From: a virus
Lineage: Duplodnaviria > Heunggongvirae > Uroviricota > Caudoviricetes
Virus record (IMG/VR): IMGVR_UViG_3300035208_005701
Strand: one strand, 5' to 3'
Length of the DNA: 10,178 bases
A program made the translations under genes and the position numbers. The notes beneath the pieces were generated by a model that saw only the letters and a program-made list of their open reading frames with translations, was not told the origin of the DNA and searched no databases. This document shows, piece by piece, positions 3,219-10,178 of this stretch. How positions within the stretch are numbered: position 1 is the first letter of the stretch; each line of letters begins with the position of its first letter.

Positions 3219-4628
3219 TTAAATAGATCTATCTATCTGATCTTCTAATTCTTTAAAAAGATCACTTAATTTGTTACTAAATAATTCATTGTAAAATATT
3301 ATCATATCACTTTCTAATTTAGCTAAAGGAAAATTAGTTACTTTCTTTTCATTACTAAAACTAACATATGTGTTTCTAGATAATTTTCCTATTATAGATG
3401 AGTATCTATCATAAGCTAAAATTTTATTTTTAAATCCAAGGAATGTTTCAAAAGTATCAAGGAATTCAGTTAAATTTTTAATTTTATAAGTTGTTTTTAA
3501 TATAGGTTTTTCAATGTTATAATATAATAACATCTTTTTGATTATTGGAAATCTATCTTTGAAGCTTTCAGGCAAAATAGAATACAATAAAATATTTAGT
3601 AAATAACTATTCGATACAGGTATAGTTAAAAAATGTCTATAAGGAATATCTAAAACTTTACTTAAAATTGGATAAGTAATGTAATTAGCGAATAGAGACA
3701 TTTCTTTTAAACCAGAAACTGTATTTTTAAATTTATCAATATCTATATCAAGATCTTCTAATCTGTTATAAGCAGATAATAATAATTTACTAATTGTATC
3801 ATTATGCGCATAACTACTTAAATTATCTTTACCTTGAACAGAATATACATCTTGAGTATTAATTGTTTCAGAATATATTATTGTATCTTTGTAGATATTT
3901 TTTAATATCCATTTAATTGATTCATCAATTACACTTATCAAGTACGGAATTGGATTTAAAGTTGTTTCGCATGTTACTAAAATATTATTCATAATAAAAT
4001 TAAAGATAGTCATAATGTGCATATCAGTAGTTTTACAATAAACTGATTTTATATAATCCCACATATATTTATCTGTATGGTTATATTCGTAAGTTTTGCT
4101 ACTAACAATCTTAAATAATTTATAGATGATATCATTATTAGCTATTTTTGATACTAGTTTATTATATATTTCTTTATGAAATTTAGATGGTAATTGTAAA
4201 AAAGTATCTTGAGAAAAAATACAATAAAGTTTTAAATAATTTGATACTTGAACTATTTTTTTAATTTCTACATCATCAAAAAATATTGAGTTTTTTGATA
4301 TTTTTGATCTATTAATATAATCAGAAAAATTTATGTTGCATATTTCTAAGTATTTATCAGTTAACTCCATTAACTTATCTATATTGTTTTTAATGATTGA
4401 ATATTCTCTGTTGCTTTTTATATAATCTCTTATTAATCCAATATACCAGTTATCAAACTCATCTCCTAATTTTTTACTGCAATCTTCTATAAAATCTGAA
4501 AGTTTGTTGAATTTATTTGTTACTGGAGAAAATGCTAAATTTAAATCTATAATTTTTTCTAATTCGCCTTTTTTGTTTTTATTTGACATGCTTACTTTTC
4601 TTTTGCCTTCAGTTTTAAATACTATCAT
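3219..4628 (-). CDS. Probable promoter-specificity (sigma-like) subunit of a phage non-virion RNA polymerase, AR9 gp226/phiKZ gp68-like
   Basis: 469 aa with an AAGGAG RBS. KLFKIVSSKTYEYNHTDKYMWDYIK and NPIPYLISVIDESIKWIL resemble segments of AR9 gp226 as I recall them, and the size and the neighbouring RNAP gene fit. Not verified by alignment. Confidence 0.55.
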   Translation of the reverse strand: MIVFKTEGKRKVSMSNKNKKGELEKIIDLNLAFSPVTNKFNKLSDFIEDCSKKLGDEFDNWYIGLIRDYIKSNREYSIIKNNIDKLMELTDKYLEICNINFSDYINRSKISKNSIFFDDVEIKKIVQVSNYLKLYCIFSQDTFLQLPSKFHKEIYNKLVSKIANNDIIYKLFKIVSSKTYEYNHTDKYMWDYIKSVYCKTTDMHIMTIFNFIMNNILVTCETTLNPIPYLISVIDESIKWILKNIYKDTIIYSETINTQDVYSVQGKDNLSSYAHNDTISKLLLSAYNRLEDLDIDIDKFKNTVSGLKEMSLFANYITYPILSKVLDIPYRHFLTIPVSNSYLLNILLYSILPESFKDRFPIIKKMLLYYNIEKPILKTTYKIKNLTEFLDTFETFLGFKNKILAYDRYSSIIGKLSRNTYVSFSNEKKVTNFPLAKLESDMIIFYNELFSNKLSDLFKELEDQIDRSI

Positions 4629-4730
4629 ATTTGCTCCTTTTGTTTTTAATAATCTATTTACGTAAGTTATATATGTAATGAATTTAACTATTCAAAGTAG
4701 ATACTTTTTAGGTAGTACTTTAGTTGAATT

Positions 4731-4744
4731 GAACAAATATAAAA
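4731..4744 (+). promoter_or_regulatory. Putative phage promoter motif GAACAAATATAAAA upstream of the 4759 ORF and the beta-prime gene
   Basis: Identical to 2678-2691 and followed by AAGGAG (4749-4754) and the ATG at 4759. Confidence 0.5.
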
Positions 4745-4758
4745 TATAAAGGAGTTGT

Positions 4759-5508
4759 ATGGGTATAGATCGAGTAATAGATAAATGGACTAGAGATTTA
4801 TTAAAAATAACAATTATAGAATCTAATCATTCTAATGATAAAGATTTTTTTAAATTTGTAGATGAAGATTTATCATATGAACAGATATTGAATATTTTGA
4901 TTACCGGAAATGTTGTATCAGAATATAGTTCATCTGCTCAGACTTTAATGATACATAAAAAAATTCATCAGAATTTGTCTCAGTTTATGAATTTGCCTTT
5001 ATCTTCTTTTTTTACTTTTGAAGTTTTGCCTTTTATAATAAAAAATATCCCATTAGTTACTACTATTTTGGGTGGATCAGAAGCAACTAAAAATATACTA
5101 GTTAATAAAAAATTATCGTCTAGAATGGTTGGAGTGTTATTTTCATTAGTTAAAAATATAATAACAGAAAAAATACGTCAAGGTTCCATTGGTTGTGCAA
5201 AAAATTGTATTTCTAAATTAACAAGTGAAAAATCTTTGATAAAGTGGAGTATTCCTGTATGTGCATCTGAATGTAGAGTTGAAGTATTGAAAAATGTATT
5301 ACATCAATTGAAACATGATTCTTTGAGATGTGGTAACACAGATAGACCAAAGCAATGTAAGCATGCTTTAGTTACTCAATATATAAGAGTTAAAAAGTAT
5401 CTAGATAAAGAGATTATTCATTTTAATAAAGTAAAAGATCAATTTGATAATAAGGTAGAGGATGTTAGAAAGAAGTCTTCTCCTTTATATGTAGAAAAAC
5501 CTCATTAA
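4759..5508 (+). CDS. Hypothetical protein with a Cys-rich C-terminal half
   Basis: 249-aa ORF with a strong RBS. Cys pattern CAKNC...CASEC...C...C. No family recognised. Confidence 0.6.
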   Translation: MGIDRVIDKWTRDLLKITIIESNHSNDKDFFKFVDEDLSYEQILNILITGNVVSEYSSSAQTLMIHKKIHQNLSQFMNLPLSSFFTFEVLPFIIKNIPLVTTILGGSEATKNILVNKKLSSRMVGVLFSLVKNIITEKIRQGSIGCAKNCISKLTSEKSLIKWSIPVCASECRVEVLKNVLHQLKHDSLRCGNTDRPKQCKHALVTQYIRVKKYLDKEIIHFNKVKDQFDNKVEDVRKKSSPLYVEKPH

Positions 5509-5529: not shown

Positions 5530-6750
5530 ATGATAATATTGTTAGATATGGATAGTTTTGTAAAAGATTTAAAACCGGTTTCGTCTTCTGAATATATAGC
5601 TGGTAAAGGAATTCAGTTCCATCCAGATGGTTTGTTTTCAGAAAGTATTTTTGGATTGTTTGATTCGAAAGATAGAAAAGATTTGTATTCCTATATAGAA
5701 TTAAATTGTAAAGTCCTTCATCCAGCAATGTGGAACGTGTTAAGAAGATTAAATAGAAAAATATTGTCAGCTATTAATAAAGAAGCTTCATTTTCAATAA
5801 ATTCTGCTGGTGAATTAGAGCAGAATCCTGATGGAGAAATTAAAGGTTTGTCTTCAGTTATTGAGAATTTTGATAAGATAGTTTTTAAATCAGATGGAAA
5901 TACCTTTAGAGAAGATTTGATAAAAATGGTGAAGTATTATCAGAATAAAAATATGTTGTTTTTATCCAAAGTCCTTGTTATTCCTGCTTATTATAGAGAG
6001 GCAGAATTTGATCAGATTAATCAGCAAATGAGAGTTGATCCTTTAAATGAATATTATGTTAAAATAATTAGACAGTCTTTGCAACTCCAAAGTATTAGAA
6101 CCGGAGAAGTTTTTGATGTACTAGCTACTAAAATGAATAATTTGGTTTTAGATTTATATGAGTATTTAGTTGCTAAAATAGGAAAGAAAAGTGGTATCAT
6201 TAGAAGTAAAGTTCTTGGAAAACGAATTGATTTTTCTGCTAGAGCTGTGATTTCTGGTGGTTCTGATCAAATTGGAGTAGACCAAATTGGTGTCCCTTTT
6301 AGAATTTTAGTGAAGATTTTTGAGCCGTTCCTATTGTTTGATCTGTTGAAGAGTGGTGCAGTTTCTCAAGGAGAATTGGGTAGAGTTTTAAAGGAGTTTA
6401 ATAGTTCCACTTTATCAGTGTTGAATCTTAGAAATTTATTTACTGGTATTTATCATGGAGATGAAATTCCTGTTGAATTAGAATCCATGTTGAAAGATTC
6501 AGTTAATAGAGTGATTGGTGATAAAGTAGTTATTGCTAAAAGAGATCCTGCTTTGCATACCGAATCTGTTCAGGCTTTTTATCCAGTCATGGTTAGTGGA
6601 AGTACTATCCGTTTGAGTATATTAAAATGTGGTGGATTTTCTGCCGATTTTGATGGAGACTCGATTAATGGTTCCATTGGAATAAGTTATGGAGAAAATA
6701 AAACCAAATGGATAGGACAAATTTCCGAATTAGAAAATGCGGAGGTTTGA
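5530..6750 (+). CDS. rpoC: Phage multisubunit RNA polymerase beta-prime-like subunit, N-terminal part up to the catalytic DFDGD motif, fused to a putative 29-aa N-intein
   Basis: Conserved beta-prime motifs appear in order: DGLFSESIFG, YIEL..KVLHP, VIPAYYR, GKKSGIIRSKVLGKRIDFSARAVIS, IGVP, KRDPALH, SADFDGD (6640-6660). AAGGA RBS upstream. Confidence 0.9.
   Translation: MIILLDMDSFVKDLKPVSSSEYIAGKGIQFHPDGLFSESIFGLFDSKDRKDLYSYIELNCKVLHPAMWNVLRRLNRKILSAINKEASFSINSAGELEQNPDGEIKGLSSVIENFDKIVFKSDGNTFREDLIKMVKYYQNKNMLFLSKVLVIPAYYREAEFDQINQQMRVDPLNEYYVKIIRQSLQLQSIRTGEVFDVLATKMNNLVLDLYEYLVAKIGKKSGIIRSKVLGKRIDFSARAVISGGSDQIGVDQIGVPFRILVKIFEPFLLFDLLKSGAVSQGELGRVLKEFNSSTLSVLNLRNLFTGIYHGDEIPVELESMLKDSVNRVIGDKVVIAKRDPALHTESVQAFYPVMVSGSTIRLSILKCGGFSADFDGDSINGSIGISYGENKTKWIGQISELENAEV
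6661..6750 (+). other. Putative N-terminal half (IntN, 29 aa) of an atypically split intein
   Basis: Directly after DFDGD the protein reads SINGSIGISYGENKTKWIGQISELENAEV-stop. It starts with Ser and has the intein block-A pattern [CS]-I-x-G-x-x-x-I...I-x-E-L instead of the QMAVH/EMNLH-type sequence expected in beta-prime. Confidence 0.65.
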
Positions 6751-6752
6751 TA

Positions 6753-6768
6753 GCTGATTTTGATGGTG
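6753..6768 (+). repeat. Second, out-of-frame copy of the ADFDG-coding sequence
   Basis: GCTGATTTTGATGGTG (6753-6768) versus GCCGATTTTGATGGAG (6643-6658): 14/16 identical, and both differences fall at synonymous third positions. Confidence 0.7.
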
Positions 6769-6788
6769 TACTCCTTTAAAATAAAAGA

Positions 6789-6798
6789 GAATAAATAT
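6789..6798 (+). promoter_or_regulatory. Putative promoter motif GAATAAATAT upstream of the homing endonuclease gene
   Basis: Matches the GAAYAAATAT consensus and is intergenic, 37 nt before the ATG at 6836. Confidence 0.4.
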
Positions 6799-6835
6799 TA
6801 AAAGATGTATTTGTGGTAAAGAAAATGAAAATTTA

Positions 6836-7789
6836 ATGAAAATTAGAATGCATTCTAGTAAATGTCGTGCTCATGGTCAATATAGAGATGAAATAATAAC
6901 AAAAGAATTTTTGTTGGATAATTATATTAATCAAAATTTATCAATAGATGAAATTATTAATAAATTAAATAATAAATTTAGTTCTTCTGAAATAGAAATG
7001 TATATGAAAAAATTTGAAATAGGTACTAGAATATGCAAATGCGGAGAAATTTGTATAGAAGGAGTTTCATATGGAAGTCATATAGGACATTGTAAAGTTT
7101 ATAAAGATTATAAAAATAACATATTAAGTGAAGAATTTTTATTAGAAAATTATATTAATAAACGATATCCATGTGGATATATTTCAGAACTTTTGAAAAA
7201 TGAGTTTACTGCACATGAAATTAAGATGAATCTTAAAAAATTTAATATTAAAATAAGAACTAATTCAGAAAATATTAGTACAGATTTTGTACAAAATAAA
7301 TTGAAAACTACAATGTTAGAAAAATATGGGGTAGAAAATTGTAGTCAATCAGAAGAAGTAAAACAGAAAAAAGTAGATACTATGATGGATAATTTTGGAG
7401 TTTCTCATCATTTGAAATTAGAATCTCAAATGGATAAACAACGACAAACCAATTTGGATAGATATGGAAAAGATAATGTTTCTCAAGTAAAAGAAATTCA
7501 TTTATTAAAAGAATCTACTTTTCAGGAAAATTATGGAGTTAGAAATATTTTTTGTGATGCTCAAATGATGAAGCAATATTGGATGGATAAATTTGGAGTA
7601 GATAATCCTTCAAAAGTTTTAGAGGTTGAATTAAAAAAACAAGATACTATTTTTAAAAATTTTGGATTGTTAACTACTCGTTATCCAGCTTCAAAAAATT
7701 CACAAATTTTATTTGATAAGATATATAAAAATCTTACAGAATCTATTAAACCATTTTGTTATTATTATAATCTAAATAAAGAACCATGA
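6836..7789 (+). pseudogene. 5' part of a Vsr-like homing endonuclease gene (repeat-rich putative DNA-binding region), truncated by IS607 insertion after codon 316
   Basis: Two FLLxNYIN helical repeats, a CKC...H..HC cluster, and ~23-aa (Y/F)GVxN repeats typical of N-terminal regions of phage Vsr-like endonucleases. It ends at CYYYNLNKE plus IS-derived P-stop and rejoins 9764 in frame. Confidence 0.75.
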
Positions 7790-7822
7790 TAAAACATATG
7801 AAATCATTTAATTTCAATTATT

Positions 7823-9070
7823 TTAACTCACTTTTAAAACAGATGTTTTCAAAGTATCAATTGAAACAATTTTAGTTGTTTCTAACAGCTTTGGTTCCAG
7901 CTGCTTGAATTTATAATATATATTTATTGCGGAATTTGTATCCCGTTCTAATACCATTCCGCAATTTTTGCAATTGTAAATTCTGTCACTAAGAGTCATT
8001 TCTTGTAAGTGATTACAAGTGTTGCATTTTTTAGTTGTATTTGATTCGTTAATTTTATAGTACCTATTCCCACTGAATGTGTTACTTTTGTATTGTAACA
8101 TGTTAACGAATAAGGAAATAGGCCAAAATTGATTCTTGTATTTGTTTATGTTTTTGATTTTAGATTGAGTGTTTTTCTTGATGCCTTTTAAATCTCCTAC
8201 TACAATAGTATTAAAATTATCTGTTAATTTCTTAGAGATTTTATGAAGAAAAGTTCTTTTCTTGTTAGTTTCTTTGGATTGTAATCTGTTAATAGTTCTA
8301 TTTAAATGTTTCCATTTTCTAGACCATTTTTTCTTTTTATTTAGAAGTGATTGAATATGTTCTTTTCTTTTTGTTAATTTTGGATATTTTAAATTAGCTC
8401 CAGAAACTTTTAAAATTTCATTAGTTTCTGGAATATATCCAGTAATTAAATTCTTTTGTCCTAAATCAATAAAAATTGATTTGTCAGAATTATTTTCTTT
8501 TAATTTTGGATCAATACAAAAATGGAAATAAAAACATTTATGAGATGGGTTATAAATTAATTTATGACCTTCTTTTGTAAATGGTAAAGTGAGTAAATTG
8601 AATTTTTTAGTATTATATTTACAAATTATTTGAATTTTTTTATGTTCTTGAAAAGTAAGTTCTACAATCGAATTATTAATAATTTTTATGGTACAAGAAT
8701 TTTTTAAAAAAGAAAAATATAAAGGTTGAAAAAATCTTGTAGATTTGTATCGATTTGGAAACTGTACAGATTTATCAAATTTTTTGGCTTCATAAAATCC
8801 TTTAATTGAGTTGAAAAGTGTATCGGTTATACCGATCACTTGCCAACTCATTAAATAAGAAGGTATTATGCCTAGTTTTTTAGCACTAAATTCTTTTTGC
8901 AATTCATATTTCGAAATATAATTTTTAGTTATTAAATTTCGTTTTTGTTCAAAATCATCTTTTAAAACATTTACCATTGCATTATAATATTTACAAATTT
9001 CAATAGACGCAAATTTTAGATAATTTTGATCATCTTTAGAAATTTTACATTTAATTTGAAACGTTTTCAT
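7823..9070 (-). CDS. tnpB: TnpB RNA-guided nuclease (IS607-associated) with a rearranged RuvC-II
   Basis: RuvC-I FIDLG (Asp at 8465-8467), VVGDL at the canonical RuvC-II position, INESNTT, zinc finger CNTC...CKNC, and RuvC-III RDTNSAINI (Asp at 7940-7942). Confidence 0.9.
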   Translation of the reverse strand: MKTFQIKCKISKDDQNYLKFASIEICKYYNAMVNVLKDDFEQKRNLITKNYISKYELQKEFSAKKLGIIPSYLMSWQVIGITDTLFNSIKGFYEAKKFDKSVQFPNRYKSTRFFQPLYFSFLKNSCTIKIINNSIVELTFQEHKKIQIICKYNTKKFNLLTLPFTKEGHKLIYNPSHKCFYFHFCIDPKLKENNSDKSIFIDLGQKNLITGYIPETNEILKVSGANLKYPKLTKRKEHIQSLLNKKKKWSRKWKHLNRTINRLQSKETNKKRTFLHKISKKLTDNFNTIVVGDLKGIKKNTQSKIKNINKYKNQFWPISLFVNMLQYKSNTFSGNRYYKINESNTTKKCNTCNHLQEMTLSDRIYNCKNCGMVLERDTNSAINIYYKFKQLEPKLLETTKIVSIDTLKTSVLKVS

Positions 9071-9686
9071 TTATAAATAATTCTTTTTTAATAATATTTA
9101 ATTTTTGTTTTCCTCTTCTAGAACCATATAATTTCATACTAAAATGATGAATTATAGCAATTAAATCATTAGTAATTTCTTTTCTATAATCCAATGTTTC
9201 AGATTCATTTAATATTATAATATTAGTATTCATATATGAACATATATGTTTAATTAATTCAAAACCGAATCTTAAAAGTCTATCTTTGTATTCAATAATT
9301 ATATTTTCAACTTGATCAGATAATATTAATTGTATTAGTTTTAGAAAATTGACTCGATTAAAATTCATTCCGGAAGCAATATCTTCTAGAATCAAATCAA
9401 TTTGCATTCCTTTACTAGCGCAAAAATCTTGTAATCGTTGTTTCTGCCGTTCAAGATTCTCTTTCTGCAAAGATGTACTGACTCTACAATAAATAACAGT
9501 TTTTCTTTTTATTTTTAGTTTTTTGGTATTACTATTGACAAATTGTTCTAAATCAAATTCAGAAAATCTCCTATGACCATTCGGAAGAACAGTATATTTA
9601 ATAATATTTTTAGTGCACCATATATGCAAAGTGGTATTAGCAATATTTAAAATTTTAGATGCTTGAGAGATAGTATACAGTTTCAT
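9051..9686 (-). CDS. tnpA: IS607 TnpA transposase (N-terminal MerR-like HTH plus serine recombinase domain)
   Basis: N-terminal HTH ending in LPNGHRRF, catalytic YCRVST, LERQ, DIASGMNFNR, EYKDRLLRFGFELI. AAGGAG RBS upstream. Confidence 0.93.
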   Translation of the reverse strand: MKLYTISQASKILNIANTTLHIWCTKNIIKYTVLPNGHRRFSEFDLEQFVNSNTKKLKIKRKTVIYCRVSTSLQKENLERQKQRLQDFCASKGMQIDLILEDIASGMNFNRVNFLKLIQLILSDQVENIIIEYKDRLLRFGFELIKHICSYMNTNIIILNESETLDYRKEITNDLIAIIHHFSMKLYGSRRGKQKLNIIKKELFINENVSN

Positions 9687-9688
9687 TA

Positions 9689-9729
9689 GTACTCCTTTAT
9701 ATTTATTCTGAATAAATATAAAGGAGTAC
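9689..9729. repeat. Perfect 41-bp palindrome (20-bp arms, 1-nt centre) covering the tnpA RBS
   Basis: GTACTCCTTTATATTTATTC-T-GAATAAATATAAAGGAGTAC; the arms are exact reverse complements. Confidence 0.95.
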
Positions 9730-9763
9730 GAACTAATATAAAAACGTTAACTATAAGAATGAA

Positions 9764-10090
9764 TATTATTTGAATTATCAAACATTCAAATATGTATATC
9801 TTGATTTTTCATTAATATCTGATACTTTTAAAATAAGTATAGAATTTAATGGAGATTTTTGGCATATGAATCCTGAAAAATATAAATCTACAGATATTAA
9901 TAGTGTTACAAAAAGAACTGCTGAAGATACATGGAACAGAGATGAAAAAAGAAACAAAGAGATAGAACTACAAGGATTCAAACATTTAATAATATGGGAA
10001 TCCGAGGTTAACCATTCACCAGAACAAACATTAAATAAATGTTTATCTTTTATAAAAGAGCATTGTCTAGAATCAATAATTGGAGTTTAA
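9764..10090 (+). pseudogene. 3' part of the interrupted homing endonuclease gene: Vsr/DUF559-like nuclease domain
   Basis: YLDF...ISIEFNGDFWHMNP...WNRDEKRNKEIELQGFKHLIIWESE is a Vsr-like catalytic signature. It is in frame with 6836-7783 once the IS is removed, and the TTG at 9770 has no good RBS of its own. Confidence 0.8.
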
Positions 10091-10178
10091 ATGAAACTTT
10101 TTAAAAAATTAGGACGACATATTAGACCGAATGGTGTATATGTTACTCATTTTGAACCAACAACTCAGATTTATATAA
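10091..10178 (+). CDS. Start of an ORF (MKLFKKLGRHIRPNGVYVTHFEPTTQIYI...), candidate C-intein half fused to the rest of beta-prime; 3'-truncated by the window
   Basis: The ATG directly follows the endonuclease stop codon, with GGAG at 10082-10085. The frame is open to the window end. Its identity is inferred from position and a loose likeness to the region following intein block A. Confidence 0.5.
   Translation, partial: MKLFKKLGRHIRPNGVYVTHFEPTTQIYI

What the first reader, a model, noticed from the sequence alone, without database searches (positions are those of the whole stretch)
6640..10178. RNA polymerase active site apparently fractured by an atypically split intein right after DFDGD
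Seen: the Mg-binding motif ADFDGD is followed at once by a Ser-initiated 29-aa block-A-like peptide and a stop. About 3.3 kb of selfish DNA follows, then a new ORF with its own RBS at 10091. Established: fractured phage genes with split inteins flanking a free-standing Vsr-like endonuclease were described by Dassa et al. 2009, and naturally short N-inteins exist (e.g. AceL-TerL, about 25 aa). Inference: this RNAP needs protein trans-splicing to join the catalytic loop to the rest of beta-prime. I do not know of a described split intein at this site. A Ser1 intein with a 29-aa N-half would also be attractive for protein ligation.
Basis: partly seen in the sequence, partly recalled or inferred. 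Interest (0 to 1): 0.9.

Follow-up and report, generated by a model that had tools for sequence, protein, structure and literature searches.

The report
Split intein in phage RNA polymerase
An uncultured phage encodes its RNA polymerase beta-prime subunit in two pieces, broken right after the catalytic DFDGD motif by a split intein with a 29-residue N-half, and the pieces most likely have to be spliced together as proteins to form the active site.

Summary

- **The two halves.** The beta-prime N-part (5530-6750) ends ADFDGD, then a Ser-initiated 29-aa peptide, then a stop. The ORF starting at 10091 runs off the window. Overlapping contigs that are 100% identical extend it. It has a 151-aa intein C-half with block B (S-x-D-H) and a block F Asp. 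It ends Q-D, followed by Thr and then beta-prime sequence (TMALYTPITKEA).
- **Homologues.** Intein-less homologues read DFDGD-(T/Q/M)MA. Four diverged relatives stop at the same point after the same short N-half.
- **Fold and docking.** A profile of the C-half hits only inteins in the PDB. The AlphaFold model (pLDDT 89.7) matches intein structures. The complex test supports docking of the N-peptide (score 0.70, best control 0.02).
- **The DNA between the halves.** It is one free-standing DUF7487 plus Vsr-like homing endonuclease gene, broken here into 317-aa and 106-aa ORFs by an IS607-type element (tnpA and tnpB).
- **Family.** All 97 database matches (up to 50%-identity cluster representatives) that were checked sit in beta-prime. 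The family occurs as a contiguous mini-intein, a LAGLIDADG maxi-intein, a canonically split form and this atypically split form. The C-terminal residue is Asp, not Asn, in all 28 aligned members.

This is a new intein family and insertion site of a known kind (fractured genes, atypically split inteins). Splicing itself is untested. This scan had already noted the nesting and the duplicated motif on this same window.

The parts
5530..6660 (+). N-extein: phage multisubunit RNAP beta-prime N-part (M1-D377), ending in the Mg-binding motif ADFDGD
   Evidence: Pfam RNA_pol_Rpb1_2 at E 1.1e-19. tblastn gives 25-31% identity to jumbo-phage beta-prime genes. Aligned with 13 homologues in A1.
6661..6750 (+). 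Intein N-half: 29 aa (S378-V406, block A/N1 plus the first helix), then stop TGA at 6748-6750
   Evidence: Read directly. Relatives P0004, P0005, P0006 and P0008 end at the same position after 29-31 aa with the pattern S...(I)SELE..EV. The segment aligns with the start of the contiguous or long-N inteins of P0009, P0011, P0012, P0014 and P0049. It is predicted to dock on the C-half.
6734..6767 (+). Diverged second copy of the extein coding DNA (KCGGLIADFDG in another frame). It overlaps the end of the N-half ORF. Core GCTGATTTTGATGG lies at 6753-6766.
   Evidence: 76% identical over 33 nt to 6624-6656 (D5). The core motif occurs twice against 0.01 expected. A similar copy sits after the N-half stop in L006 and L010 but not in L008.
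6768..6835 (+). 5' untranslated region of the endonuclease gene, with a small hairpin (CTCCTTT/AAAAGAG) and the promoter-like motif GAATAAATAT at 6789-6798
   Evidence: the motif occurs 5 times against 0.41 expected, each time 13-47 nt upstream of a start codon. Dassa 2009 (PMC2677866) reports hairpins with late-promoter motifs upstream of such endonuclease genes.
6836..7789 (+). Homing endonuclease, N-terminal part (317 aa, DUF7487 repeats). Native sequence runs to about 7780; the last two codons and the stop come from the IS.
   Evidence: Pfam DUF7487 at E 4.8e-19. It aligns with the N-terminal three quarters of the intact 375-471 aa endonucleases of L006, L008 and L010.
7781..9765 (-). IS607-type insertion: tnpB at 7823-9070, tnpA (serine recombinase with MerR-like HTH) at 9051-9686, and a palindrome at 9686-9732 next to the tnpA start. 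The ends are approximate.
   Evidence: Pfam OrfB_IS605 plus Cas12f1-like_TNB, and Resolvase plus HTH_17/MerR. Palindrome: I3. The tnpB-side end near 7781 is inferred from unitig branching and from a second contig that shares 7788-7867. The other end is placed only by the protein alignment.
9770..10090 (+). Homing endonuclease, C-terminal part (106-aa ORF): Vsr/DUF559-like nuclease core (LDF...IEFNGDFWH...IWESE)
   Evidence: Pfam MTES_1575 (27.6 bits) and DUF559 (18.7 bits), both below cut-off. It aligns with the C-terminal quarter of the intact relatives.
10091..10178 (+). Start of the intein C-half plus beta-prime C ORF. Only the first 29 codons lie in the window. The C-half is M1-D151, Thr152 is the +1 residue, and beta-prime continues from there.
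   Evidence: RBS GGAG at 10081-10084. Extension P0001 comes from the identical contig L002. Full-length relatives are 781-782 aa and match Rpb1_3 and Rpb1_5.

Best explanation
The beta-prime gene of this phage's multisubunit RNA polymerase is a fractured gene. One ORF makes beta-prime residues 1-377, ending in the catalytic DFDGD, fused to a 29-aa intein N-half that starts with Ser. A second ORF, 3.3 kb downstream, makes a 151-aa intein C-half fused to the rest of beta-prime, which starts Thr-Met-Ala-Leu-Tyr.

Inferred mechanism: the short N-half docks onto the C-half and completes a Hint fold. Class-1 protein trans-splicing then follows. Ser1 undergoes an N-O acyl shift, the acyl group is transferred to Thr+1, the C-terminal Asp151 cyclises in place of the usual Asn, and an O-N shift closes the peptide bond. 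The product is one beta-prime chain reading DFDGD-TMALYTP, which restores the Mg-binding loop.

The DNA between the halves is a free-standing DUF7487 plus Vsr-like homing endonuclease gene. In relatives this gene is intact and presumably copies the whole cassette into intein-less alleles. In this genome an IS607-type element has split it and probably inactivated it.

Shown: the anatomy, the homology, the fold, conservation in relatives and predicted docking. Inferred: that splicing occurs, the chemistry of step 3, and homing by the endonuclease.
For: 1. **Exact in-frame insertion.** Intein-less homologues P0007, P0010, P0016 and P0020 read D(F/Y)DGD directly followed by (T/Q/M)M(A/S)(L/V/I)(Y/F).P. 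The window has DFDGD|S...(29 aa)* and then ...GVFVQD|TMALYTPITKEA. phmmer aligns the latter to the cellular beta-prime sequence FDGDQMAVHVPLTLEA.
2. **Conserved split point.** Relatives at 44-57% identity (P0004, P0005, P0006, P0008) stop at the same place. L006, L008 and L010 show the same order: beta-prime N (406-408 aa), endonuclease (375-471 aa), intein C-half plus beta-prime C (781-782 aa).
3. **Family-wide motifs** (A4, 28 sequences). Invariant: His50, Asp73, block F Asp132 and Thr134, and the C-terminal Asp151. His74 and Thr152 are nearly invariant. Position 1 is Ser, Cys or Thr in the intein-bearing N-parts, and +1 is Thr, Ser or Cys.
4. **Profile search.** The A4 profile against all PDB sequences gives seven matches at E<=10, and all seven are inteins. 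Six score between 1.6e-4 and 1.3e-3: KlbA at 1.6e-4, the TFIIB inteins and the PolII inteins. DnaB scores 0.59.
5. **Fold.** The AlphaFold2 model of the C-half has pLDDT 89.7 and pTM 0.81. Foldseek against the PDB puts the cysteine-less Aes123 PolB1 split intein first (E 4.3e-7), and ranks 1-45 are all inteins or BIL domains.
6. **Docking.** In the complex test of C-half residues 1-172 with beta-prime N residues 362-406, the score was 0.70 and the best of 3 controls 0.02. That mark was reached by 51 of 78 solved complexes and 2 of 108 mismatched pairs. The runs share at least 74% of contacts and the partner pLDDT is at least 66. The N-half strand 383-388 pairs with C-half residues 25-30 and touches the block B and block F regions.
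7. **Contiguous relatives.** P0049 (1146 aa) is a contiguous mini-intein and P0096 a LAGLIDADG maxi-intein, both at the same site. In these a 150-aa or larger insert sits next to the catalytic Asp triad, which argues that excision is needed.
8. **No intron.** Rfam finds no group I or II intron signal in the window or in four related loci.
Against: - No experiment exists, and no RNA or protein data were available.
- Pfam's intein and Hint models do not hit the window's own C-half. Relatives reach only sub-threshold Intein_splicing scores of 24-34 bits against a cut-off of 35.8.
- The C-terminal dipeptide is Gln-Asp, not His-Asn. The sequence also seems to lack the block F His that usually assists step 3, so step 3 may be slow or different.
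- Only 29 codons of the C-half lie in the window. The rest rests on overlapping identical contigs.
- The complex pass may partly reflect the model's memory of solved split inteins.
- The IS607 insertion sits between the promoter-like motif upstream of the endonuclease and the C-half ORF, and it could reduce that ORF's expression.
Confidence: 0.85

Rival explanations
1. The intein halves no longer splice. They act only as a non-covalent clamp that holds the two beta-prime fragments together, as the naturally split beta-prime subunits of jumbo-phage RNAPs associate without ligation.
For: The C-terminus is Gln-Asp rather than His-Asn. Some intein-less relatives have beta-prime N ORFs that end 35-55 aa after DFDGD (P0007, P0020). 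Cultured jumbo-phage beta-prime genes are also in pieces. So this enzyme family tolerates breaks near this point.
Against: The nucleophile positions (1 and +1), the block B Asp-His, the block F Asp and the terminal Asp are conserved or invariant across more than 28 diverged members. That includes contiguous forms, where an unexcised 150-aa or larger insert would sit directly on the Mg-binding loop. Such conservation is not expected for a mere clamp. Inteins ending in Asp or Gln are known to splice (PMC4031507, read).
Confidence: 0.08
2. The 3.3-kb insert is removed at the RNA level by a group I intron that carries the endonuclease. The intein would then really be contiguous, and the stop and start codons would be intron sequence.
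For: In Yersinia phage phiR1-37 the beta-prime N gene g178 ends GGDFDG-KF-stop. A Vsr-like ORF (g179) follows, then a group I intron match (RF00028, 44.1 bits, E 1.7e-9), then a small ORF that continues beta-prime (MDAPMNF...YMMTRD). Vsr-like endonucleases therefore do ride introns at this very DNA site. The window's junction (GTT|TGA ... ATG|AAA) would even allow a U at -1 and a terminal G.
Against: The sensitive Rfam scan finds nothing at E<=1 in window 6500-10178, and nothing at E<=0.1 in L007, L008, L011 and L012. In L010 only 16 and 25 nt are non-coding between the three ORFs, and in L006 the endonuclease ORF overlaps the C-half start. That leaves no room for an intron core. The stop after the N-half and the Met-Lys start of the C-half are conserved in position across diverged relatives.
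Confidence: 0.03
3. The locus is decaying. The IS607 hit and the duplicated extein fragment would mark a dying RNAP gene in a defective phage.
For: The endonuclease is broken by the IS. An out-of-frame extein relic follows the N-half.
Against: Both beta-prime ORFs are intact. The same sequence, 100% identical, was assembled independently: three assemblies carry the downstream part, two of them also carry the beta-prime N gene, and the stretch is held by a groundwater and a landfill run. The relic and the split are shared with relatives whose endonuclease is intact. So only the endonuclease is damaged.
Confidence: 0.04

Closest known systems
Fractured genes with split inteins and free-standing Vsr-like or GIY-YIG endonucleases (Dassa et al. 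2009, PMC2677866)
   Same: Three same-strand ORFs: host N-part plus intein N-half, a free-standing endonuclease, and intein C-half plus host C-part. There is a short untranslated region with a hairpin and promoter-like motif before the endonuclease. The endonuclease stop abuts the start of the downstream ORF. The nuclease domain is Vsr-like.
   Different: The host protein is a phage RNAP beta-prime, which is not among the hosts named in that paper (gp41, IMPDH, DnaE, NrdA, NrdJ, ligase, terminase). The endonuclease has a long DUF7487 repeat region. It is itself interrupted by an IS607 element. A relic of extein DNA sits before it.
[quoted passage not shown] The GOS terminase intein is described in Dassa 2009. 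The PolB16 OarG intein (15-aa N-half, Ser1/Ser+1) is described in PMC10189870. AceL-TerL is cited from memory.
   Same: The break comes right after block A (N1), so the long C-half carries all the other motifs. As in PolB16, Ser1 and a hydroxyl +1 residue imply cysteine-independent chemistry. A conserved Lys/x-His (SKHEN, His50) sits where PolB16's NX-motif His would be expected.
   Different: The N-half is 29 aa and the C-half 151 aa. The intein ends Gln-Asp, whereas PolB16 ends His-Asn. The host and insertion site differ. The same intein family also occurs canonically split and contiguous.
Aes123 PolB1 cysteine-less split intein (PDB 9hth)
   Same: It is the best structural match to the modelled C-half (Foldseek E 4.3e-7, 25% identity). 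It comes from a phage and has Ser-type chemistry.
   Different: It sits in a DNA polymerase, not an RNAP. The title of entry 9hth names an N159A mutation, so its terminal residue is Asn. Its split site and the rest of its biology were not checked here.
Archaeal RNAP largest-subunit inteins (Mja rPol A', Mja and Nph rPol A''), listed in PMC1635734
   Same: They are inteins in the homologue of beta-prime.
   Different: They are cellular. That they are contiguous and carry endonuclease domains is from memory. I could not check whether Mja rPol A' uses the same insertion point, so the site may not be unprecedented.
[quoted passage not shown]
   Same: It uses the same DNA target, the DFDG|D codons, and the same nuclease type. 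The window's extein relic ends GATGGT, exactly where the phiR1-37 exon ends.
   Different: That element is spliced as RNA, not as protein, and it has no Hint domain.

Membership tests
Intein (Hint domain, class 1 splicing) | In-frame insertion at a conserved host site that is absent from intein-less homologues | tested here: met
   In A1, intein-less homologues read DFDGD-(T/Q/M)MA. The window has 29 + 151 aa between D377 and Thr+1.
Intein (Hint domain, class 1 splicing) | Nucleophile (Cys/Ser/Thr) at intein position 1 and at C-extein +1 | tested here: met
   Ser1 and Thr+1 in the window. Across the family, position 1 is S, C or T and +1 is T, S or C.
Intein (Hint domain, class 1 splicing) | Block B T-x-x-H and block F Asp (F:4) | tested here: met
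   S71-E-D73-H74. D73 is invariant, H74 is at least 90% conserved, and D132 is invariant in 28 sequences.
Intein (Hint domain, class 1 splicing) | Block G His-Asn at the intein C-terminus | tested here: not met
   The window has Gln150-Asp151. Asp is invariant in all 28 members and the penultimate residue is Q, Y, W or F. Inteins ending in Asp or Gln are a known splicing-competent variant (PMC4031507). This departs from the consensus but does not exclude membership.
Intein (Hint domain, class 1 splicing) | Hint (horseshoe) fold | tested here: met
   AF2 model at pLDDT 89.7. Foldseek ranks 1-45 are all inteins or BIL domains. The profile hits only inteins in PDB sequences. Pfam models alone do not reach threshold.
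Intein (Hint domain, class 1 splicing) | Self-catalysed excision and extein ligation | not testable with these tools
   This needs expression and mass spectrometry.
Naturally split intein in a fractured gene (Dassa 2009 arrangement) | Host N-part plus intein N-half ORF, free-standing endonuclease ORF, and intein C-half plus host C-part ORF on one strand | tested here: met
   Window. The same order holds in L006, L008 and L010.
Naturally split intein in a fractured gene (Dassa 2009 arrangement) | The two intein halves associate | tested here: met
   Prediction only: score 0.70 against a best control of 0.02. The mark was reached by 51 of 78 solved complexes and 2 of 108 mismatched pairs. Run agreement is at least 74% and partner pLDDT at least 66. 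The pass may lean on likeness to solved split inteins.
Atypically split intein (short N-half) | Break after block A (N1), so that the C-half holds N2-N4, C2 and C1 | tested here: met
   The 29-aa N-half aligns with the first roughly 29 residues of the long-N and contiguous relatives. Only Val-stop and Met are added at the break.
Vsr-like (DUF559 / MTES_1575) homing endonuclease | Vsr-type nuclease core with catalytic Asp, Glu and His motifs | tested here: inconclusive
   MTES_1575 scores 27.6 bits (cut-off 38.2) and DUF559 scores 18.7 bits (cut-off 20.6). The LDF...IEFNGDFWH motifs align with intact relatives that carry the same weak hits. The gene is split by the IS, and cleavage was not tested.
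IS607-family insertion sequence | Serine-recombinase TnpA with an N-terminal MerR-like HTH, followed by TnpB | tested here: met
   Resolvase at E 1.2e-17 plus HTH_17/MerR. OrfB_IS605 plus Cas12f1-like TNB. The two genes overlap on the minus strand.
IS607-family insertion sequence | Defined element ends and mobility | tested here: inconclusive
   The tnpB-side end near 7781 is inferred from unitig branching and from a second contig that shares 7788-7867. The other end is bracketed only to 9733-9769 by the protein alignment. No empty site was found.

The most novel reading that the evidence does not exclude
The DFDG|D codons of phage RNAP beta-prime are a shared homing hotspot, and the same Vsr-like endonuclease lineage has moved between two kinds of self-splicing host. 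In phiR1-37 it rides a group I intron at this site. In this clade it sits inside an intein at the same site, and it still carries a relic of the 5' exon (GCTGATTTTGATGGT) in front of it. That relic is conserved in three lineages. It may now serve as an operator or decoy for the endonuclease, as I-TevI represses its own gene (recalled, not checked). By extension, the permanently split beta-prime genes of jumbo-phage RNAPs could be fossils of such fracturing events after loss of the intein or intron.
Probability: 0.2. Interest if true: 0.8.

Novelty: new member of a known kind. Interest (0 to 1): 0.62.

Why it matters
**For RNA polymerase biology.** The break and the intein sit directly after the third catalytic Asp. 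No active site can form until the two chains are joined, so phage transcription would depend on protein trans-splicing. That makes the splicing step a possible control point.

**For intein evolution.** One intein family at one site occurs in several forms:
- contiguous mini-intein;
- LAGLIDADG maxi-intein;
- canonically split, with or without a gene between the halves;
- N-half fused to the endonuclease;
- atypically split.

This natural series shows how endonuclease invasion breaks inteins at different points.

**For protein engineering.** Naturally split inteins with a short N-half and Ser/Thr chemistry are rare. PMC10189870 calls PolB16 only the second mesophilic cysteine-less split intein. 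Here at least 26 clusters of such C-halves (at 50% identity) are available, all ending in an unusual invariant Asp.

Tried and rejected
- **Cultured phages.** Megablast of 5530-10178 against 50,697 phage records found no match. An exact-pattern scan of IMG/VR for the window's end also found none.
- **Pfam.** Scans of the C-half and of the 29-aa N-half found no Hint or intein family. The profile and fold routes were used instead.
- **The search for related loci.** The 8-sequence alignment worked.
- **IS607 relatives.** blastn in distant mode against phages found only about 98-nt matches inside Staphylococcus phage transposase genes. That was no help for the element's ends.
- **Laid contigs.** X1 and X2 were laid to look for an IS-less allele. 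There was no credible joint across the IS. The listed joints have 20-24 nt sides and were disregarded. No RNA holder was listed.
- **Intron searches.** Rfam found nothing in the window or in four relatives, and ARAGORN found nothing.
- **Tandem duplication.** I considered a 110-nt tandem duplication as the origin of the extein relic. I rejected it because the sequence after the relic shows no obvious likeness to the N-half coding sequence on inspection.
- **Literature.** Searches for an intein at DFDGD or in phage RNAP found nothing relevant. The insertion site of the archaeal Mja rPol A' intein could not be established.

Full report
**Observation**

The window is AT-rich, with windowed GC of about 21-36%, and carries phage-type genes. 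ORF 5530-6750 matches Pfam RNA_pol_Rpb1_2 (E 1.1e-19). It is 25-31% identical to the beta-prime genes of jumbo-phage multisubunit RNAPs such as phiR1-37, PBS1/AR9-like Bacillus phages and phiKZ-like phages. It ends KCGGFSADFDGD, then a 29-aa peptide beginning with Ser (6661-6747), then TGA. An ORF starts at 10091 behind a GGAG and runs off the window.

**Extending the downstream ORF**

The window's proteins are found on short contigs from other assemblies, three of which carry the downstream part. All are 100% identical to the window where they overlap. L002 extends the 10091 ORF to 231 aa (P0001). It contains FHVSEDHSLIV (block B, Ser-x-x-His) and GYDFTVVDNFTFSTDDGVFVQD (blocks F and G), followed by TMALYTPITKEA. 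phmmer aligns FVQD|TMALYTPITKEA to the cellular beta-prime sequence FDGD|QMAVHVPLTLEA. The intein C-half is therefore M1-D151, and Thr152 is the +1 residue.

Among 26 homologues of the N-part (alignment A1), three groups stand out:
- Intein-less proteins (P0007, P0010, P0016, P0020) continue D(F/Y)DGD-(T/Q/M)M(A/S), which is exactly what follows D151 in the window's second ORF.
- P0004, P0005, P0006 and P0008 (44-57% identity) also stop 29-31 aa after DFDGD, with the same Ser start and an (I)SELE..EV end.
- P0009, P0011, P0012 and P0014 carry a long N-half of about 127 aa. It runs through the window's break point and is clearly homologous to the window's C-half (KPNG..V.HY.P.....I.SI...TG....K.I..YS.HEN..MYKI.D..NRF..F..S.DHSL). 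That is a canonical split of the same intein.

Against the long-N relative P0009, the window's break adds only Val-stop and Met.

**Synteny**

In L006, L008 and L010 the order is beta-prime N (406-408 aa), a DUF7487 plus MTES_1575/DUF559 protein (375-471 aa), an intein C-half plus beta-prime C protein (781-782 aa, Rpb1_3 and Rpb1_5), and then, in L006 and its duplicate L007 where Pfam hits were on record, the beta subunit. L012 shows the canonical split: 504 aa, a 297-aa ORF, then 456 aa. L019, a MAG contig, shows a canonical split with nothing between the halves.

**The intervening 3.3 kb**

Alignment A3 shows that the window's 317-aa DUF7487 ORF (6836-7789) and the 106-aa Vsr-like ORF (9770-10090) are the N- and C-terminal parts of one endonuclease homologous to the intact ones in the relatives. 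Between them, on the minus strand, lie overlapping tnpA (Resolvase plus MerR-like HTH) and tnpB (OrfB_IS605 plus TNB) genes. That is an IS607-type element. Unitig branching, and a second contig that shares 7788-7867, place the tnpB-side end near 7781. The other end lies between the palindrome 9686-9732 and about 9769. The nesting is therefore RNAP gene > split intein > homing endonuclease > IS607.

**Is it an intein?**

Pfam does not recognise the window's C-half, so I tested by other routes.
- *Exhaustive search.* phmmer of the 151-aa C-half against 1.84 billion representatives gave 97 matches. Every one I examined is beta-prime at the same site. At least 26 clusters have the C-half at residue 1 of a 400-1160 aa protein, which is the atypical split. 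About 14 have a long N-half at the C-terminus of a protein of about 480-546 aa, the canonical split. P0049 is a contiguous mini-intein in an 1146-aa beta-prime. P0096, P0066, P0097 and P0103 carry LAGLIDADG domains. In P0085 the N-half is fused in frame to the Vsr-like endonuclease.
- *Alignment.* In the 28-sequence alignment A4 the invariant residues are His50, Asp73, Asp132, Thr134 and the C-terminal Asp151. His74 and Thr152 are at least 90% conserved.
- *Profile.* The A4 profile has only seven PDB matches at E<=10, and all are inteins. KlbA scores 1.6e-4, the TFIIB and PolII inteins score between 4.2e-4 and 1.3e-3, and DnaB scores 0.59.
- *Fold.* AlphaFold2 with A4 gives pLDDT 89.7. Foldseek puts the cysteine-less Aes123 PolB1 split intein first (E 4.3e-7), and ranks 1-45 are all inteins or BIL domains.
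- *Docking.* The complex test of the C-half with beta-prime N residues 362-406 scored 0.70 against a best control of 0.02. That mark was reached by 51 of 78 solved complexes and 2 of 108 mismatched pairs. The runs share at least 74% of contacts, and the partner pLDDT is at least 66. The N-half strand pairs with C-half residues 25-30 and contacts the block B and F regions. This supports docking but does not show it, and it may lean on likeness to solved split inteins.

**Unusual chemistry**

The family ends in Asp, never Asn, and is preceded by Gln, Tyr, Trp or Phe rather than His. By my reading of the sequence it also has no His at the usual block F position that assists step 3. Inteins ending in Asp or Gln are documented to splice by cyclisation of that residue (review PMC4031507), so this is a known variant. 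An entire family fixed on Asp is still notable. Ser1 and Thr+1, together with a conserved Lys/x-His (His50), resemble the NX-motif signature proposed for Ser1 inteins (PMC10189870). That resemblance is my inference from position only.

**Rivals**

RNA splicing was considered seriously because phiR1-37 shows it at this very site. There the beta-prime N gene g178 ends GGDFDG-KF-stop. A Vsr-like ORF follows, then a group I intron match (RF00028, E 1.7e-9, 44 bits against a gathering score of 50), then a small ORF that continues beta-prime. In the window and four relatives, however, Rfam finds nothing. In L010 and L006 there is also no non-coding room for an intron core. A non-splicing clamp and simple decay are each unlikely, for the reasons given under the rival explanations.

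**An unexplained feature**

A diverged copy of the extein coding DNA (KCGGLIADFDG, out of frame) lies right after the N-half and overlaps its last codons. Similar copies (GCTGATTTTGATG) follow the N-half stop in L006 and L010 but not in L008. In L010 the copy is closer to the other relics than to L010's own extein codons. The relic ends GATGGT, exactly where the phiR1-37 exon ends. I read it as a scar of the endonuclease cassette's earlier home at the DFDG|D site, possibly retained as a binding site. This is speculation.

**Comparison with what is known**

The arrangement is that of Dassa et al. 2009 (PMC2677866). Their hosts did not include RNAP, and only their terminase intein was broken at this unusual point. 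Atypically split inteins have been characterised, for example PolB16 OarG with a 15-aa N-half. RNAP largest-subunit inteins are known in archaea (PMC1635734), but I could not determine their insertion point. No paper in the searchable library describes an intein at DFDGD or in a phage beta-prime.

**Verdict**

This is a genuine, conserved, atypically split intein at the catalytic centre of a phage RNAP. It is a new member of a known kind. Splicing is untested. Earlier notes of this scan on the same window had already recorded the nesting, the duplicated motif and the promoter-like motif. I confirmed these independently.

Noticed in passing
window 7781-9765: An IS607-type element (tnpA serine recombinase plus tnpB) sits inside the homing endonuclease gene of a phage. 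Its tnpA-side palindrome (9686-9732) carries the phage's promoter-like motif GAATAAATAT plus AAAGGAG in both orientations. One copy faces out towards the endonuclease remnant and the intein C-half ORF.
   Followed up: partly
window 2678, 4731, 6789, 9699(-), 9710: The motif GAAYAAATAT occurs 5 times against 0.41 expected, each time 13-47 nt upstream of a start codon. It is a candidate promoter for the phage's own RNAP.
   Followed up: partly
L013 (Yersinia phage phiR1-37, AJ972879.2) 3850-5470: The beta-prime N gene g178 is annotated as ending GGDFDG-KF-stop. Downstream lie a Vsr-like ORF (g179), a group I intron match at 4916-5274 (RF00028, E 1.7e-9) and a 32-aa ORF g181 that continues beta-prime. 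The gene looks intron-interrupted inside the DFDGD motif rather than truly ending there.
   Followed up: partly
L006:4663-5649 and L008:4659-5651: Relatives carry a second DUF7487 plus DUF559 endonuclease gene (328-330 aa) between the amidase gene and the 469-aa minus-strand gene. The window has no gene there (3218/3219 junction).
   Followed up: no
P0046 (1159 aa) residues 587-876: One relative's intein C-half plus beta-prime C protein has a second Intein_splicing match inside Rpb1 domain 5. That would be a second intein site in the same subunit.
   Followed up: no
P0085 (843 aa): A canonical-split relative has the long intein N-half fused in frame to the DUF7487 plus Vsr-like endonuclease. 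This resembles the in-frame endonuclease integration step of the Dassa gene-breaking model.
   Followed up: no
L018, L019: Family members lie on contigs binned as a Thermoplasmata archaeon MAG and a Candidatus Izimaplasma MAG. The window's DNA is held by groundwater and landfill metagenomes. The host is unknown and the bins may be mis-assignments.
   Followed up: no
window 7788-7867: In run X1 a 5883-nt contig shares the tnpB-side end of the IS with 3 differences, including T>A at 7818. This suggests a second, slightly diverged copy of the element in the same sample.
   Followed up: no
window 3219-4628 (-): A 469-aa minus-strand ORF with no Pfam hit lies next to the beta-prime operon. A minus-strand ORF of 469 aa (L006, L008) or 513 aa (L010) sits at the same place in the relatives. 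Its function was not examined.
   Followed up: no
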